From positions 33,024,001-33,088,000 of the forward strand of contig CP086569.2 of assembly GCA_009914755.4 (NCBI GenBank): DNA of 64,000 nucleotides, in the 5' to 3' direction. The notes under the pieces were generated by a model, which worked only from the letters and a program-made list of their open reading frames with translations, ran no database searches and was not told where the DNA came from. Source of the DNA: the human T2T-CHM13v2.0 reference genome, Homo sapiens. Position numbers and translations under genes: made by a program. Of this stretch, positions 1 through 64,000 are shown piece by piece (the stretch's first letter is position 1; every line of letters begins with the position of its first letter).

Positions 1-867
1 AGTATATGATATATAACATACAATATATGATACCTAGTATATATGGTATACAATATATATTTTATGATATGTATTCTATATGTTTTATATTCTGTTATAT
101 ATAACTATTTGAAATTATATATAACTGTATAATATTTTATGTAAATATGTAATATAATATATATAACTATATAATATATTATATATAACTATATATTATG
201 TTATATATACTTTTATAACATAATTTACATAAAATGTCATAATATAATATATATTATATTATTTCACATTACATAATATATTTTACATATCACCCAATAT
301 AAGTAACATACATAATATTATAATATAGATTATATTATGTTATATTAAATATCATATATATCATGTATCATATATTCTATAATATATATTACACATTATA
401 TAATATGTATGTTGTCTATTTTGTGATATATAAAACTATATATATAATTATATTATTATACATATAACTAGATAAACATGTAATTCTACATATTTTCATT
501 TGTAATATATAGAATTATATAATCATATATAATTATTTATATTCTATAAAAAATTATATCATTATATAAATTATAATATAAAAAAATTATAATATGTACT
601 ACAAATATACATATTATATATCATATATGATATAGTACCTTTGTTATATATCATAATACATATAAATGTGTATTATGTTATCTTTAATTATATAATTTCA
701 TATATAAGATGTATAATATGTATTATATATTGTCTAGGTTATGTAATATATATAGTATATGTAAGCTGACACAGGATAAATATTATATACTATGACATAT
801 AAAATATATGAGGTTATATGTTACATATAAGGCATAGCACATAACATGTAATATATATCATATATAA
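1..867. repeat. Partial unit: AT-rich block belonging to a unit that starts upstream of the window
   Basis: Co-linear with the AT-rich blocks at 2404-3282 and 4819-5697, for example atgatatataacatacaatatatgatacct and the segment running to aggcatagcacataacatgtaatatatatcatatataa. Confidence 0.9.
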
Positions 868-1162
868 TTTTTTTTTAGACAGAGTCTTGTCGTGTTGCAC
901 AGGGTGGAGTACAATGGCGCCATCTTTGCTCACTGCAACATCTGCCTCACGGGTCTAAGCGATCGTCCTCCCTCAGCCTCCCAGGTAGCTGGGACTACAC
1001 CACACTGGGAGTACACCAGCTGCCACCATGCCTAGCTAATTTTTTGGATTTTTAGTAGTGACAGCGTTTCACTGTATTGGCCAGGATGGTCTTGATCTCT
1101 TCACCTTGTGATCCCCTTGCCTCGGCCTCCAAATTTGCTGGGATTACAGGCCTGAGCCAAGA
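868..1162 (-). mobile_element. Alu SINE (old, CpG-decayed; 5'-terminal about 12 bp missing) embedded in unit 1
   Basis: The + strand reads ttttttttt agacagagtcttgtc...cagggtggagtacaatggcgc...ctcactgcaac...cctcagcctcccaggtagctggga...ctagctaattttttggatttttagtagtgacag...ttggccaggatggtct...cctcggcctccaaatttgctgggattacaggcctgagcca. This is the reverse complement of the Alu consensus along its full length. Confidence 0.93.
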
Positions 1163-1740
1163 TCCATATTTTTTAAATGAAAAAAAATTTCAAAGGTACT
1201 CTGCTTGGTACAATAATCAAATGTATAAACTGAGGAATAAAACATAACCATGAAACCTACTTATAACTGCATATGGAAAATACAGAGGATAATTTTTTAA
1301 ATAACATATTTTGAAAGCCTTAACTAGTAATTTGAAGAGTTGGCATTTGAAAGGCCAGTATGAATATACCTTCAAAGCAGCAACACAGGTTCCCCATGAG
1401 AAAAAGCAAACACAGGGAAAATAAAAACACAAAGGTTCAATCTCTTCTGACCTTTGAAAGACACAGCACAGACAGTGGTCCTTAGGACGAAGAGCAGGAG
1501 ACCCCTAATTCCGTCACCATGGCGATAGGGCACAAACATTGCTGGGTGAGGGCACAATCCACATTGAGAGGTCCAACTGCTGCCAGGAAGACAGGAGTGC
1601 TTTTACATAGACCGAAAGGTCATTGAAGGCTCAGAGTTTTGTTTCAAGAACTGAATCCCAAGCCCACACGTTATTAGGCTGCGCTTCTTAAAACAAGTTA
1701 TGAGATGAGAAAAAGGGCACCCACAAACATACGTATACAT
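1163..1740. other. Non-Alu segment of about 580 bp and unknown origin (shown for unit 1; recurs in every full unit between the Alu and the AT-rich block)
   Basis: Moderate GC, not Alu-like. Runs from atattttttaaatgaaaaaaaatttcaaagg to gggcacccacaaacatacgtatacat. Contains only the short, non-credible minus-strand ORFs. Confidence 0.6.
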
Positions 1741-3282
1741 TATGTATATAATAATATACAGTATCATATATATAATATATATAACCTATGTATAATATTG
1801 TTTTACATCCTGCATCTTATATTATATATATTGTATAAAATATAATAATTCATAATATATAACGTTTATATTTATACAATATGACATATAGTATATATTA
1901 TAATTTATGACATATATAATATATGTTATATATCATATATAGAATATATTATACGGTTAATATACGTATTAAATATAAATTATACATTATATATATTATA
2001 TAAAATATATCTGTTATATATAATACCCTTTATGCATAATATATATATTATGTCTATGTTATATATAGTATAAAACAACATATAATAATATATAATTGTA
2101 TATATAAAATGCGACATATAATATATATTATATTTTATGACATATGTAATATATATTATATATTATATATAATACGTTGTATGTATAATACCTATATTAA
2201 ATATATATTATATGACTATGTTATTAATTACATGTCACATATGTTATATATTATATATTTTACATAGAATATACCGGTTACATGCAATATATACTATGTT
2301 ACCTATAATGTATAATTGATTACATGTAAAATAAAGAATGCAATATATTATGTATAATTTATAATATACAATATGTGGAATGTGATATATATAACATATA
2401 ATATATGATATATGATATACAGTATATGATATATAACATACAATATATGATACCTAATATATATGGTATACAATATATATTTTATGATATGTATTCTATA
2501 TGTTTTATATTCTGTTATATATAACTATTTGAAATTATATATAACTGTATAATATTTTATGCAAATATGTAATATAATATATATAACTATATAATATATT
2601 ATATATAACTATATATTATGTTATATACACTTTTATCACATAATTTACATTAAATATCATAATATAATATATATTATATTATTTCACATTACATAATATA
2701 TATTACATATCACCCAATATAAGTAACATACATAATATTATAATATAGATTATATTATGTTATATTAAATATCATATATATCATGTATCATATATTCTAT
2801 AATATATATTACACATTATATAATATGTATGTTGTCTATTATGTGATATATATAACTATATATAATTATATTATTATACATATAACTAGATAAACATGTA
2901 ATTCTACATATTTTCATTTATAATATATAGAATTATATAATCATATATAATTATTTATATTCTATAAAAAATTATATCATTATATAAATTATAATATATA
3001 AAAATTATAATATGTACTACATATATATATTATATATCATATATGATATAGTACCTTTGTTATATATCATAATACATATAAATGTGTATTATGTTATCTA
3101 TAATTATATAATTTCATATATAAGTTGTATAATATGTATCAAATATTATATATGTGTGTAATATATATAGTATATATAAGCTGACACAGGATAAATATTA
3201 TATACTATGACATATAAAATATATGAGGTTATATGTTACATATAAGGCATAGCACATAACATGTAATATATATCATATATAA
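1741..3282. repeat. AT-rich block (>85% A+T), non-simple and TATA-like (shown for unit 1; recurs in every unit)
   Basis: No single short motif repeats, but there are older internal similarities, for example gacatataRtatatattataWtttatgacatatRtaatatat at about 1883 and about 2113. Confidence 0.85.
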
Positions 3283-60924: not shown

Positions 60925-62508
60925 TGAGATGGGAAATAGGGCACACACAAACATACGTATACATTATGTATATAATAATATACAGTATCATATATATAAC
61001 ATATATAACCTATGTATAATATTGTTTTACATCCTGCATCTTATATTATATATATTGTATATAATATAATAATTGATAATATATAAGTTTTATATTTATA
61101 CAATATGACATATAATATATATTATATTTTATAACATATATAATATATATTATGTATCATATATAATATATTATATGGTTAATATACGTATTAAATATAA
61201 AATATATATTATAAGTATTATATATAGTGTACCTAAGTTATATATAATATACCCTATATATAATATATATATTATGTCTATGTTATATATAGTATAAAAC
61301 AACATATAATAATATATAATTTTATATATAAAATATGACATATAATATATATTATATTTTATGACCTGTATAATTTATATTATATATTATATACAATACG
61401 TTTTATGTATAATATATATATTAAATATATATTATATGACTATGTTATTAATTATATGTCATATATGTTATATATTATATATTTTACATAGAATATACTG
61501 GTTATATATAATATATACTATGTTACCTATAATGTATAATTTATTACATATAATATATTGTATGTCATATATTATATATAATTTATAATATACAATATGT
61601 GGAATATGATATATATAACATATAATATATGATATATGATATACAATATATGATATATAATATACAATATATGATACATTATATAGATGGTATACAATAT
61701 ATATTTTATGATATGTATTATATATGTTTTATATTATGTTATATATAAGTATGTGAAATAATATATAACTGTATAATATTTTATGTAAATATGTAATATA
61801 ATATATATAACTATGAAATATATTATATATAACTATAAATTATGTCTTATATAGTTTTATTACACTTTACATAAAATATCATAATATAATATATATTATA
61901 TTATTTTATGTTACATAATATATATTATATATCACATAATATAAGTTACTTACATAATATTAAAATATAGATTATATTATGATGTATTAAATATCATATA
62001 TATCATGTATCATATATTGTATAATATATATTATACATTTTATATTATATATGTTGTCTATTATGTGATATATATAATTATATATATAATTACATTATTA
62101 TACATATAACTACATAAAGATGTAATTCCATATGTTTTTATTTACAGTATATATAATTATATAATCATATATATTTATTTATATTCTAGAAAAAATTATA
62201 TCATTATATAAATAATAATATATAAAAATTATAATATGTACTAAAATATATATATTATATATCATATATGATATAGTATATTTGTTATATATCATATTAC
62301 ATATAACTATATATTATGTTATCTATAATAATATATTTTCATATATAAGATGTATAATATGTATTATATATTATAAATGTTATGTAATATATATAGTATA
62401 CATAAGATGACACAGGATAAATATTATATACTATGACATATAAAATATATGAGGTTATATGTTACATATAAGGCATAGCACATAACATGCAATATTTATG
62501 ATATATAA
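60925..62508. repeat. Repeat unit 25b: deletion-derivative partial unit (about 30 bp of the non-Alu segment end plus a full but diverged AT-rich block; Alu absent)
   Basis: gagatgggaaatagggcacacacaaacatacgtatacattatgtatataataatatacagtatc matches the 3' end of the non-Alu segment. The + ORFs at 60074-60271 and 61361-61588 give homologous I/Y-rich translations 1287 bp apart. Confidence 0.8.
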
Positions 62509-62804
62509 TTTTTTTTTAGACAGAGTCTTGTCCTGTTGCACAGGGTGGAGTACAATGGCGCCATCTTTGCTCACTGCAACATCTGCCTCACGGGTCCAAG
62601 CGATTGTCCTCCCTCAGCCTCCCAGGTAGCTGGGACTACACCACACTGGGACTACAGCAGCTGCCACCATGCCTAGCTAACATTTTGGATTTTTAGTAGT
62701 GACAGCGTTTCACCGTATTGGCCAGTATGGTCTTGATCTCTTCACCTTGTGATCCCCTTGCCTTGGCCTCCAAGTTTGCTGGGATTACAGACCTGAGCCA
62801 AGAT
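62509..62804 (-). mobile_element. Alu copy, unit 26
   Basis: Periodic copy, diverged (ctaacattttgg, caccgtattggccagtatgg). Confidence 0.9.
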
Positions 62805-64000
62805 CCATATTTTTTAAATGAAAAAAAATTTCAAAGGTACTCTGCTTGGTACAGTAATCAAATCTATAAACTGAGGAATAAAACATAACCGTGAAACATA
62901 CTTATAACTGCATATGGAAAATACAGAGTATAATTTTTTAAAATAACATATTTTGAAAGCCTTAACTAGTAATTTGAAGAGTTTGCATTTGAAAGGCCAG
63001 TATGAATATACCTTCAAAGCAGCAACACAGGTTCCAAATGAGAACAATCAAACTCAGGGAAAATAAAACCACAAATGTTCACTCTGTTCTGACCTTTGAA
63101 AAACACAGCACAGACAGTGGCACTTAGGACCAAGAGCAGGAGATCCCTAATCCCGTCACCATGGCGATAGGGCATAAACATTGCGGGGTGAGGGCACAAT
63201 GCACATTGTGAGGTCCAATTGCTGCCAGGAAGACAGGAGTGCTTTTACATAGACCGAAAGGTCATTGAAGGCTCAGATTTTCGTTTCAAAAACTGAATCC
63301 CAAGCCCACACGTTATTATGCTGCGCTTCTTAAAACAAGTTATGAGAAGGGAAATAGGGCACCCACAACATACGTATATAGTATGTATATAATAATATAC
63401 ACTATCATATATATAATATATATAACCTATGTATAATATTGTTTTACATCCTGCATCTTATATTATATATATTATATGTAATATAATAATTGATAATATA
63501 TAAGTTTATATTTATACAATATGACATATGATATATATTATATTTTATGACATATATAATATAGATTATATATCATATATAGAATATACTATACGGTTAA
63601 TATACGTATTAAATATATAATATACATTATATATATTATATCTACGTTATATATAACATTAACTATAGATAATATATATATTATATCTAGCTTATATATA
63701 ATATAAAATAACAGATAATTATATATAATTGTATATATAAAATATGACATATAATATATATTATATTTTATGACATATATATCATATATATTATATATTA
63801 TATATAATATGTTGTATGTATAATACATATATTATATATATATTATAAGTCTAAATTATTAATTATATGTAATATATGTTATATATTACATATTTTACAT
63901 TTCATACACATGTTACATAGAATATATACTATGTTACATGTTACCTAGAATTTATTATATATAATATAATGTATGTCATATATTATATATACTTTATAGT
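62509..64000. repeat. Repeat unit 26 (cut by the window end; the most diverged copy)
   Basis: Alu at 62509-62804. The 61-aa ORF at 63014 differs from the core translation at about 12 of 61 residues. AT-rich block diverged. Confidence 0.85.

What the first reader, a model, noticed from the sequence alone, without database searches (positions are those of the whole stretch)
1..64000. Homogenised derived core flanked on both sides by older variants, polarised by using the Alu consensus as outgroup
Three variant positions near the start of each Alu separate the units into edge and core types:
- Units 1-2 (868-5697) and units 22, 24, 25 and 26 (51.4-64 kb) read agacagaGtcttg, gggtggAgtacaatgg and caacAtctgcc.
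- Units 4-20 (8.1-47.1 kb) read agacagaAtcttg, gggtggGgtacaatgg and caacTtctgcc.
- Unit 3 (5698-8101) and unit 23 are mosaics of the two.

The Alu consensus is GACGGAGTC and CTGGAGTGCAGTGG, which matches the edge states. The edge units are therefore ancestral. The interior is a younger subfamily that expanded or was converted from within, leaving diverged relics at both flanks, as in other satellite arrays. Divergence also rises steadily through the last 16 kb; the 61-aa ORF translation drifts from 0 to about 12 substitutions.
Basis: seen in the sequence. Interest (0 to 1): 0.7.

Follow-up and report, generated by a model that had tools for sequence, protein, structure and literature searches.

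The report
Human DYZ2 satellite: canonical core, older flanks
The window is an internal slice of the well-known human 2.4-kb DYZ2 (HSat1B) satellite, in which a run of standard repeat units sits between older variant units, a pattern already published for this satellite and therefore ordinary.

Summary
All listed variant states were read correctly: units 1-2 are G/A/A, unit 3 G/G/A, units 4-20 A/G/T, unit 22 G/A/A, unit 23 A/G/A and units 24-26 G/A/A.

Eight further sites across the 2,420-bp unit show the same core-versus-flank split. Rooted on 9-10% diverged copies of the same repeat from unrelated public assemblies, the flank units branch first and the core is nested. The core clade excludes every flank unit in 190 of 200 bootstraps. 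The polarity is therefore supported, although the Alu consensus polarises only two of the three sites.

The interpretation needs four corrections:
- The sequence is human DYZ2/HSat1B (2,420 bp, 24% GC, Alu + HSATI + AT-rich).
- The core consensus is identical to the consensus of independent external copies. The core is the canonical species-wide unit, not a subfamily born in this array.
- The window starts and ends inside units and has no array boundary, so the "flanks" are window flanks.
- The left and right flanks are different lineages, and divergence rises in steps (1.8%, 2.9%, 7.5%), not steadily.

Hallast et al. 2023 and Rhie et al. 2023 already describe a young centre and older periphery for DYZ2. 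They attribute it to unequal sister-chromatid exchange and gene conversion. Verdict: already known, low interest.

The parts
1..867 (+). AT-rich tail of a cut-off unit (u00), non-canonical
   Evidence: It is 2.4% from the core consensus. It carries the flank state at sites 1583, 1854, 2006, 2060 and 2107, and its derivedness is 0.91. The window starts inside this unit, so this is not an array end.
868..5697 (+). Units 1-2: a recently duplicated pair from an earlier-branching lineage (2,415 bp each)
   Evidence: The two units differ by 1 substitution. They carry the flank (ancestral) state at all 11 diagnostic sites and about 18 private derived states. They are 1.5% from the canonical consensus, with derivedness 0.88.
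5698..8101 (+). Unit 3: intermediate or mosaic unit (2,404 bp, 16-bp deletion inside the Alu near 5818)
   Evidence: Its diagnostic states are G G A G A G T C A G T, that is 8 derived and 3 ancestral, interleaved. It is 0.96% from the consensus with derivedness 0.97. It shares 1759C with units 1-2 and 903T with unit 2.
8102..48300 (+). Canonical DYZ2 core: units 4-19 plus the first ~1.4-1.6 kb of unit 20
   Evidence: Units 4-19 and this part of unit 20 carry the derived state at the 11 diagnostic sites. Each of units 4-19 is 0.45-0.70% from the consensus. That consensus is 2,420 bp and identical to the consensus of 8 external copies. Near-identical neighbour pairs are 9/10 (3 differences), 14/15 (6), 18/19 (9) and 5~7.
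48191..48402 (+). Interval holding the switch from canonical to older type inside unit 20
   Evidence: Unit 20 is derived at sites 15-1372 and ancestral at 1583, 1854, 2060 and 2107, but derived at 2006. Its Alu+HSATI part is 0.35% from the consensus and its AT-rich part 2.26%.
48403..58804 (+). Tail of unit 20 and units 21-24: older variants, each different from the others
   Evidence: They are 1.7-1.84% from the consensus and 2.2-2.8% from each other. Derivedness is 0.86-0.89. Unit 23 has a canonical patch at sites 15 and 39. Structural changes are a ~250-bp deletion at the 20/21 junction (~49,100) and, in unit 23, a 171-bp AT-rich expansion at ~55,176-55,346 plus a 32-bp deletion at ~56,375.
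58805..60926 (+). Unit 25, first part: transitional unit truncated at about unit position 2,100
   Evidence: It is 2.9% from the consensus (3.8% in the AT-rich part) with derivedness 0.72. Ancestral states are concentrated after about position 1160.
60927..62508 (+). Part-unit 25b: old-type unit lacking the Alu and nearly all of HSATI
   Evidence: It begins 'gagatgggaaatagggcacacacaaacatacg', which is the last ~30 bp of HSATI, followed by a full AT-rich part. It is 7.5% from the consensus with derivedness 0.34.
62509..64000 (+). Unit 26 (cut off by the window end): old-type unit
   Evidence: It is 7.4% from the consensus (4.6% in Alu+HSATI, 11.3% in AT-rich) with derivedness 0.13. It is the most basal window unit in the tree. 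Its AT-rich part is 98.5% identical to external contig L039.
23122..23307 (-).
   Evidence: It has a TTG start and lies in the HSATI part. It has no Pfam match and no called gene on record. Its changes simply track nucleotide divergence, 0-6 nt in units 1-25 and 16 nt in unit 26. It is a chance ORF.
22620..22909 (-). Alu-derived part of the unit (copy in unit 10), read in reverse on the + strand
   Evidence: A local alignment of unit positions 1-290 to the reverse complement of AluY gives 81% identity, with a 15-bp internal duplication. There is no Rfam hit at gathering threshold.

Best explanation
The window is an internal 64-kb slice of a human DYZ2 (HSat1B) satellite array, most likely from Yq12. 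The 2,420-bp unit has three parts: an old Alu read in reverse (~290 bp), a ~570-bp HSATI part and a ~1.55-kb AT-rich part.

From about 5.7 kb to 48.3 kb the units are canonical DYZ2, the variant that dominates this satellite across people. The units on both sides belong to earlier-branching lineages of the same repeat. On the right they form an ordered series, from about 1.8% through 2.9% to 7.5% divergence, ending in an old-type repeat.

The arrangement is the expected product of concerted evolution in a non-recombining tandem array. Unequal sister-chromatid exchange and short-tract gene conversion spread one variant through array interiors. Older variants survive where exchange is rarer, towards block borders.

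Shown here: the identity of the repeat, the polarity, the nesting, and the local footprints of exchange. Inferred: the chromosomal location, and that exchange rather than some other process produced the pattern.
For: **Identity of the repeat.**
- The core consensus is 2,420 bp, 24.2% GC, with 1 CpG per 151 bp and 'ACATACG' at the HSATI/AT-rich junction. Its Alu part is 290 bp and 81% identical to AluY.
- The published DYZ2 values are a 2,420-bp consensus, 24% GC, 1 CpG per 150 bp, the same 7-mer, a 290-bp Alu about 20% diverged and a 566-bp HSATI part.
- Scanning with a 31-mer recovered 17 contigs in bacterial assemblies and 47 stretches of metagenome contigs that are 97-99.8% identical. This is the human HSat1B contamination described by Rhie et al..

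**Canonical core.** There are 0 differences in 2,520 columns between the core consensus and the consensus of 8 external copies.

**Polarity and nesting.** See, and the Alu consensus at two sites.

**Footprints of exchange.**
- Neighbour pairs differ by only 1, 3, 6 and 9 substitutions, while distance is flat at about 1.15% beyond lag 2.
- Unit 20 is a recombinant.
- Units 3 and 23 carry interleaved patches.
- All four combinations of states at sites 15 and 39 exist when the window and external copies are taken together.
- There are deletion and part-unit junctions at ~49,100 and 60,927.

**Literature.** Young centre and older periphery within DYZ2 arrays and across Yq12, unequal sister-chromatid exchange as the proposed cause, and pedigree evidence for intra-array gene conversion.
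Against: - The chromosome of origin was not determined. HSat1B also occurs on acrocentric short arms.
- The chromosomal origin of my outgroup copies is unknown. Rhie et al. infer that acrocentric HSat1B derives from the Y-linked repeat. If the diverged copies are acrocentric, they are not a clean outgroup.
- An independent outgroup, the Alu consensus, exists for only two sites.
- Most external canonical copies are short-read contigs that collapse many units. They speak for a consensus, not for individual units.
- Bootstrap support for the core clade falls to 88 of 200 when only Alu+HSATI is used. Most of the signal lies in the AT-rich part, where alignment is harder.
- Whether the right end approaches a true block border cannot be seen from inside the window.
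Confidence: 0.82

Rival explanations
1. A new subfamily arose inside this particular array and expanded or converted outwards. The window's two ends are the array's flanks, holding its original units.
For: The derived states are contiguous, and both sides keep ancestral states at 10-11 sites. Neighbour duplications show that local expansion does happen.
Against: The core consensus is identical to that of independent copies from unrelated samples, so the type is not local. Core units are about 1.1% apart with no distance decay beyond lag 2, so there was no recent local burst. The window begins and ends inside units and has no boundary sequence. The left and right flanks are different lineages.
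Confidence: 0.08
2. Seam between blocks of different history. A block of canonical units was placed between older blocks by a large duplication or rearrangement, such as the multi-block duplications and inversions reported in Yq12. The flanks would then be neighbours, not relics of the same array.
For: The switch inside unit 20 is sharp. There is an abrupt step to 7.5% at 60,927 with a part-unit junction. Rhie et al. report iterative duplications of up to 5 Mb, and Hallast et al. report inversions with breakpoints inside DYZ2 units.
Against: The right side is a graded series (derivedness 0.93, 0.87-0.89, 0.86, 0.72, 0.34, 0.13) rather than a single break. Unit 3 on the left is an intermediate. 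All units are in one orientation.
Confidence: 0.08
3. Reverse polarity. The core keeps the original sequence, and the flank units share states because they descend from a later variant lineage or have simply decayed.
For: Flank units do carry many private changes, about 18 in units 1-2. If the diverged external copies are acrocentric and derived from the Y, as Rhie et al. infer, they could share derived states with the flanks.
Against: The Alu consensus sides with the flank state at both sites it can polarise. At position 86 most of the diverged copies keep the Alu base T. The canonical cluster is shallow and the diverged cluster deep, at 4-6% pairwise. Reverse polarity would need very unequal rates.
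Confidence: 0.03
4. Assembly artefact. The uniform core reflects collapse or mis-joining of reads in a hard-to-assemble satellite.
For: Satellite arrays are prone to such errors, and the exact 2,420-bp spacing looks regular.
Against: Each core unit carries 11-17 substitutions against the consensus, and several variants are shared in nested local patterns. Published arrays have 93.7% of units at exactly 2,420 bp. No reads are available to test this directly.
Confidence: 0.02

Closest known systems
DYZ2 / HSat1B satellite of human Yq12 and acrocentric short arms (Rhie et al. 2023; Hallast et al. 2023)
   Same: Unit length is 2,420 bp with the tripartite Alu + HSATI + AT-rich make-up. GC is 24% with 1 CpG per ~150 bp, and the ACATACG junction is present. 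Identity to independent human copies is 97-99.8%. Less diverged units sit in the middle and more diverged ones towards the sides, and unit lengths vary through the AT-rich part.
   Different: Nothing of substance. The window adds unit-level detail: 11 diagnostic sites, a graded series on the right, and one recombinant unit. No DYZ1 neighbour is visible, so the position within a block, and the chromosome, are not established.
Layered structure of centromeric alpha-satellite arrays (young homogeneous core, older diverged layers on both sides)
   Same: The logic is the same: the newest variant sits in the interior, progressively older variants lie outwards, and the explanation is unequal exchange and conversion acting mostly in the interior. 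This comparison rests on my own knowledge of the field and on the parallel drawn by Hallast et al..
   Different: It is a different repeat family, with a 171-bp monomer and higher-order repeats, and it has a centromere function. Here only a 64-kb slice is seen, and the two sides are not mirror images.
Diverged HSat1B copies, 86-93% identical to the canonical unit, in public contigs (e.g. L024, L043, L046, L060)
   Same: They share the ancestral state with the window's flank units at the 11 diagnostic sites. Unit 26 and part-unit 25b keep the ancestral state at most of the 103 sites that separate this group from the canonical unit.
   Different: Unit 26 is still 7.4% from that group, so it is a separate old lineage. 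The chromosomal origin of these copies is unknown.

Membership tests
DYZ2 / HSat1B | Head-to-tail tandem repeat of about 2.4 kb, with a modal unit of exactly 2,420 bp | tested here: met
   14 of 25 units are exactly 2,420 bp and the others range from 2,280 to 3,704 bp. The core consensus is 2,420 bp. Published: 93.7% of units are 2,420 bp, range 1,275-3,719 bp.
DYZ2 / HSat1B | Tripartite unit: one old Alu (~290 bp, ~20% diverged), an HSATI part (~566 bp) and an AT-rich part (>85% AT) | tested here: met
   The Alu alignment spans unit positions 1-290 at 81% identity. Positions 296-865 have 39% GC. Positions 866-2420 have 13.6% GC.
DYZ2 / HSat1B | Base composition of about 24% GC and about 1 CpG per 150 bp | tested here: met
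   The consensus is 24.2% GC with 16 CpG, or 1 per 151 bp. The window is 24.1% GC.
DYZ2 / HSat1B | 'ACATACG' at the junction of HSATI and the AT-rich part | tested here: met
   It is present at consensus position 858. It is described in the methods of Hallast et al..
DYZ2 / HSat1B | High sequence identity to independently sequenced human copies | tested here: met
   Contigs L001, L004, L007, L022, L040, L049 and L062 are 99.3-99.8% identical to window units. That these are human HSat1B contaminants is inferred from Rhie et al., not from an annotated human record.
DYZ2 / HSat1B (Yq12 location) | Blocks alternating with DYZ1 (HSat3, CATTC-derived) on Yq12 | not testable with these tools
   The window has no CATTC/GAATG runs, and no human genome assembly was available to place it.
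Centre-young / periphery-old satellite block (layered array) | Flank units branch earlier than interior units in a rooted tree | tested here: met
   An NJ tree rooted on diverged copies shows a basal grade of flank units. The core clade excludes all flank units in 190 of 200 bootstraps.
Centre-young / periphery-old satellite block (layered array) | The older units lie at the physical borders of the block | tested here: inconclusive
   The window ends inside units on both sides and no border sequence is seen. The graded rise to 7.5% on the right is compatible with an approaching border.

The most novel reading that the evidence does not exclude
The right-hand 16 kb may preserve, in physical order, a near-complete series of intermediates between an old HSat1B type and the canonical DYZ2 unit. 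Derivedness runs 0.13, 0.34, 0.72, 0.86-0.89, 0.93 and then 1.0. If this series is a stable fossil border shared by all human Y lineages, it would let the order of the ~100 substitutions that made the canonical unit be read directly, and could date the sweep.
Probability: 0.25. Interest if true: 0.3.

Novelty: already known. Interest (0 to 1): 0.12.

Why it matters
It matters little beyond confirmation. The window is a clean, unit-resolved example of concerted evolution in the largest human heterochromatic block: a canonical variant in the interior, and older lineages and recombinant units at the sides. The general pattern and its proposed cause are already published for this same satellite.

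The practical lesson for the scan concerns method. A window edge is not an array edge. A locally uniform block may simply be the genome-wide canonical repeat rather than a local innovation.

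Tried and rejected
- **Tandem Repeats Finder.** With a maximum period of 500 it cannot see the 2.4-kb period. It reported only 230-bp and 7-bp pseudo-periods inside the AT-rich part. These are low-complexity matches, not separate arrays.
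- **First alignment.** The MAFFT --auto alignment treated the 3,704-bp unit 25 as one unit and gave meaningless values for the part-units. I split unit 25 at 60,926/60,927 and realigned with L-INS-i.
- **blastn without an identity filter.** It was swamped by 65-70% self-matches of the AT-rich part. I repeated it with a 78% floor.
- **First consensus comparison.** It counted terminal gaps of partial contigs as differences. I redid it with terminal gaps masked.
- **Rfam at gathering threshold.** No hit, not even 7SL/SRP for the Alu.
- **Pfam on three ORFs.** No hit.
- **Exact-protein look-up of the 61-aa ORF.** Not on record. The ORF is a chance reading frame.
- **Search for another person's copy of the right flank.** None of the fetched contigs matched it. 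The best was 98.5% over 780 bp (L039) to the AT-rich part of unit 26.
- **Published consensus.** The 2,420-bp consensus sequence is not in the held supplement of Hallast et al.; only descriptions are.
- **Unit 3 as a simple two-parent recombinant.** Considered and rejected. Its ancestral and derived states interleave (15 anc, 39 der, 71 anc, 952-1854 der, 2006 anc, 2060-2107 der). It is either a stem intermediate or carries several short conversion patches.

Full report
**What is in the window**

The whole 64 kb is one head-to-tail array with no other kind of sequence. There are no CATTC/GAATG runs and no telomere repeat. GC is uniformly low at 13-27% per 2 kb.

Anchoring on the T-run that opens the Alu-like part gives unit starts every ~2,420 bp. 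That makes 25 full or composite units plus a cut-off unit at each end. Both window ends therefore lie inside units.

Each unit has three parts:
- about 290 bp that align to the reverse complement of an Alu at 81% identity;
- about 570 bp of moderate GC;
- about 1,555 bp of 13.6% GC.

**Check of the observation**

The three variant sites are unit positions 15, 39 and 71.
- units 1-2: G/A/A
- unit 3: G/G/A
- units 4-20: A/G/T
- unit 22: G/A/A
- unit 23: A/G/A
- units 24-26: G/A/A

Unit 21 lacks the sites. A deletion of about 250 bp removes the end of unit 20 and the first ~116 bp of unit 21 near 49,100.

The pattern is far from chance. One contiguous run of 17 derived states among 25 units has probability 8e-6 for a single site. 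Eight more sites spread over the unit (952, 1270, 1372, 1583, 1854, 2006, 2060, 2107) split the units the same way.

The 61-aa ORF is a TTG-start frame on the minus strand of the middle part, at 23122-23307 in unit 10. Its translation differs from the core version as follows:
- units 1-2: 1 residue; unit 3: 3; core units: 0-1;
- units 20-25: 1, 2, 1, 5, 4, 3;
- unit 26: 13.

The "0 to about 12" is therefore right, but the change is a plateau and a jump, not a steady drift. The ORF has no Pfam match and no called gene on record. It is a yardstick only.

**What the repeat is**

The consensus of units 4-19 is 2,420 bp, 24.2% GC, with 1 CpG per 151 bp and ACATACG at the junction of the middle and AT-rich parts.

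These are the published values for the human DYZ2 repeat, also called HSat1B:
- a 2,420-bp consensus and the same 7-mer;
- 24% GC and 1 CpG per 150 bp;
- a 290-bp Alu about 20% diverged and a 566-bp HSATI part;
- 93.7% of units exactly 2,420 bp.

I scanned two collections with a 31-mer that lies between sites 39 and 71 and so does not select on them. It recovered 17 contigs in bacterial genome assemblies and 47 stretches of metagenome contigs. Many are 99.3-99.8% identical to window units. Rhie et al. describe exactly this HSat1B contamination of microbial databases.

I therefore file the window under DYZ2/HSat1B. The chromosome was not determined. Yq12 is most likely, because that is where the canonical 2,420-bp unit dominates. 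No DYZ1 neighbour is visible, and no human assembly was available.

**Whole-unit analysis**

I split the 3,704-bp "unit 25" into a truncated unit (58,805-60,926) and a part-unit that lacks the Alu and nearly all of HSATI (60,927-62,508). I then aligned all units with 20 external copies.

| Units | Divergence from core consensus | Derivedness |
|---|---|---|
| 4-19 (core) | 0.45-0.70% | 0.98-1.0 |
| 3 | 0.96% | 0.97 |
| 1-2 | 1.5% | 0.88 |
| leading part-unit | 2.4% | 0.91 |
| 20 | 1.54% (0.35% in Alu+HSATI, 2.26% in AT-rich) | 0.93 |
| 21-24 | 1.7-1.84% | 0.86-0.89 |
| 25 | 2.9% | 0.72 |
| 25b | 7.5% | 0.34 |
| 26 | 7.4% | 0.13 |

Derivedness is the share of derived states at the 103 sites where the canonical core differs from the diverged external copies.

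Core units differ from one another by about 1.1%. Mean distance is 0.86% at lag 1, 1.08% at lag 2, and flat at 1.15-1.19% beyond that.

The core is therefore star-like rather than locally graded. The only recent events are duplications of one or two units. Units 1/2 differ by 1 substitution, 9/10 by 3, 14/15 by 6 and 18/19 by 9. Units 5 and 7 share at least six variants that unit 6 lacks.

**The decisive comparison**

The consensus of the 16 core units has no difference in 2,520 compared columns from the consensus of eight external canonical copies taken from unrelated samples. The core is therefore the canonical, species-wide DYZ2 unit, not a subfamily that arose in this stretch.

Among the 17 contaminant contigs in bacterial assemblies, the three-site haplotype is A/G/T in 9, G/A/A in 4 and something else in 4.

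External copies that are only 86-93% identical to the core almost all carry G/A/A and the flank state at the other diagnostic sites. The exceptions are two contigs (L038, L047) whose units combine a canonical A/G/T Alu with an old-type remainder.

**Polarity**

The Alu consensus (AluY and AluSx as I recall them, so my own knowledge) has G at site 15 and A at site 39. These are the flank states. At site 71 it has C, so that site is not polarised by the Alu. The diverged copies have A there.

I used the diverged copies as the outgroup. The NJ tree places units 26, 25, 24, 23/22, 21 and then 1-2 as a basal grade. Unit 3, units 4-20 and the external canonical copies form a nested clade.

The smallest clade holding all core units excludes every flank unit in:
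- 190 of 200 bootstraps for the whole unit;
- 182 of 200 for the AT-rich part alone;
- 88 of 200 for Alu+HSATI alone, where informative sites are few.

Derivedness changes monotonically with position on the right-hand side, as the table shows.

**Where the interpretation goes too far**

- **The flanks are not array flanks.** They are the ends of an arbitrary window.
- **The two sides are not one type.** Units 1-2 share three derived states with the core (543, 558, 1943) that units 21-25 mostly lack. They also carry about 18 private derived changes. They are a separate, recently duplicated lineage rather than unchanged ancestors.
- **"Homogenised from within" is not shown.** The canonical type is everywhere, so it more likely spread into or through this block than arose here.
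- **The mosaics are real but small-scale.** Unit 20 switches from canonical to older type between positions 1372 and 1583 (window 48,191-48,402), with one canonical state again at 2006. Unit 23 has a canonical patch at sites 15 and 39. Unit 3 interleaves ancestral and derived states.
- **Conversion or recurrent mutation has acted.** Taking the window and the external copies together, all four combinations of states at sites 15 and 39 occur.

**Mechanism**

The footprints fit concerted evolution by unequal sister-chromatid exchange and short-tract gene conversion:
- near-identical neighbours;
- a recombinant unit;
- short patches of the other type;
- deletion junctions and a part-unit;
- length changes confined to the AT-rich part.

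Hallast et al. propose the same for DYZ2. They report that units near the middle of an array are more alike than those at its ends. They also report that arrays at the periphery of Yq12 are older and closer to the acrocentric copies. Rhie et al. report slightly higher divergence in peripheral blocks and frequent sister-chromatid exchange in Yq12. Later pedigree work tests de novo variants in DYZ1/DYZ2 for intra-array gene conversion.

The steps shown here are the identity, the polarity, the nesting and the footprints. The steps inferred are the Y location and the view that the older units survive because exchange is rarer near block borders.

**Caveats**

- The chromosomal origin of the outgroup copies is unknown. 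Rhie et al. infer that acrocentric HSat1B came from the Y. If the diverged copies are acrocentric they are not a clean outgroup.
- The only fully independent polariser, the Alu, covers two sites. Position 86 adds weaker support, since most diverged copies keep the Alu base there.
- Most canonical external contigs are collapsed short-read assemblies. They speak for a consensus, not for single units.
- The AT-rich part carries most of the signal and is the hardest to align.

**Verdict**

The polarity is supported, and the local-origin and array-flank claims are not. The object is human DYZ2/HSat1B, and the pattern is already published for it. Novelty: already known. Interest is low.

Noticed in passing
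L005:5897-6920 (NZ_HF570958.1, Nostocoides japonicum T1-X7, 5.16-Mb record): About 1 kb of human DYZ2, 97.9% identical to window units, sits inside a 5-Mb bacterial scaffold rather than on a small stray contig. It looks like a contaminant joined into a reference assembly. Sixteen other bacterial assemblies carry DYZ2 on short contigs (L001-L017).
   Followed up: partly
window 58805-62508: The 3,704-bp 'unit 25' is two pieces. The first is a unit truncated near position 2,100. The second is a part-unit that starts in the last ~30 bp of HSATI and has no Alu. The join is at 60,926/60,927 ('aaattataat|gagatgggaaatagg'). The second piece is 7.5% diverged.
   Followed up: yes
window ~49,080-49,110: A deletion of about 250 bp removes the last ~140 bp of unit 20 and the first ~116 bp of the Alu of unit 21. 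The junction reads 'attacatgtggtgta|gctgggactaca'.
   Followed up: partly
window 55,176-55,346 and ~56,375: Unit 23 has a 171-bp expansion of AT-rich low-complexity sequence and a 32-bp deletion near its end, which explains its 2,559-bp length.
   Followed up: partly
window ~5,818 (unit 3): A 16-bp deletion removes one copy of the 15-16-bp internal duplication in the Alu part ('ctacaccacactggga'). The diverged external copies have the duplication, so this is a secondary loss, probably by slippage between the direct repeats.
   Followed up: partly
window 868-5697; 20200-25039; 32300-37139; 41980-46819; 10524-20199: Near-identical neighbouring units occur: 1/2 (1 difference), 9/10 (3), 14/15 (6) and 18/19 (9). 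Units 5 and 7 share six or more variants that unit 6 lacks. These are recent one- or two-unit duplications or conversions within an otherwise star-like core.
   Followed up: partly
L038:1-4122, L047:1-3443, L042:1-5694: These external metagenome contigs join a canonical unit directly to a unit about 10% diverged. In L038 and L047 the diverged unit carries the canonical A/G/T Alu. They could be real junctions like the one at the right of this window, or chimeric short-read assemblies.
   Followed up: no
L018, L035, L036, L056, L059, L063 (BNJT01002008.1, 54 kb) and L028 (BNJU01004413.1, 54.6 kb): Two ~54-kb contigs filed as metagenome sequence are long DYZ2 arrays. Their identity to the window is 80-98%, probably because of long-read error, so this is human DNA in metagenome records.
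   Followed up: no
L039:1-780 versus window 63,222-64,000: The AT-rich part of the old-type unit 26 has a 98.5% match in an unrelated contig. This old lineage is therefore not unique to the window's source.
   Followed up: partly
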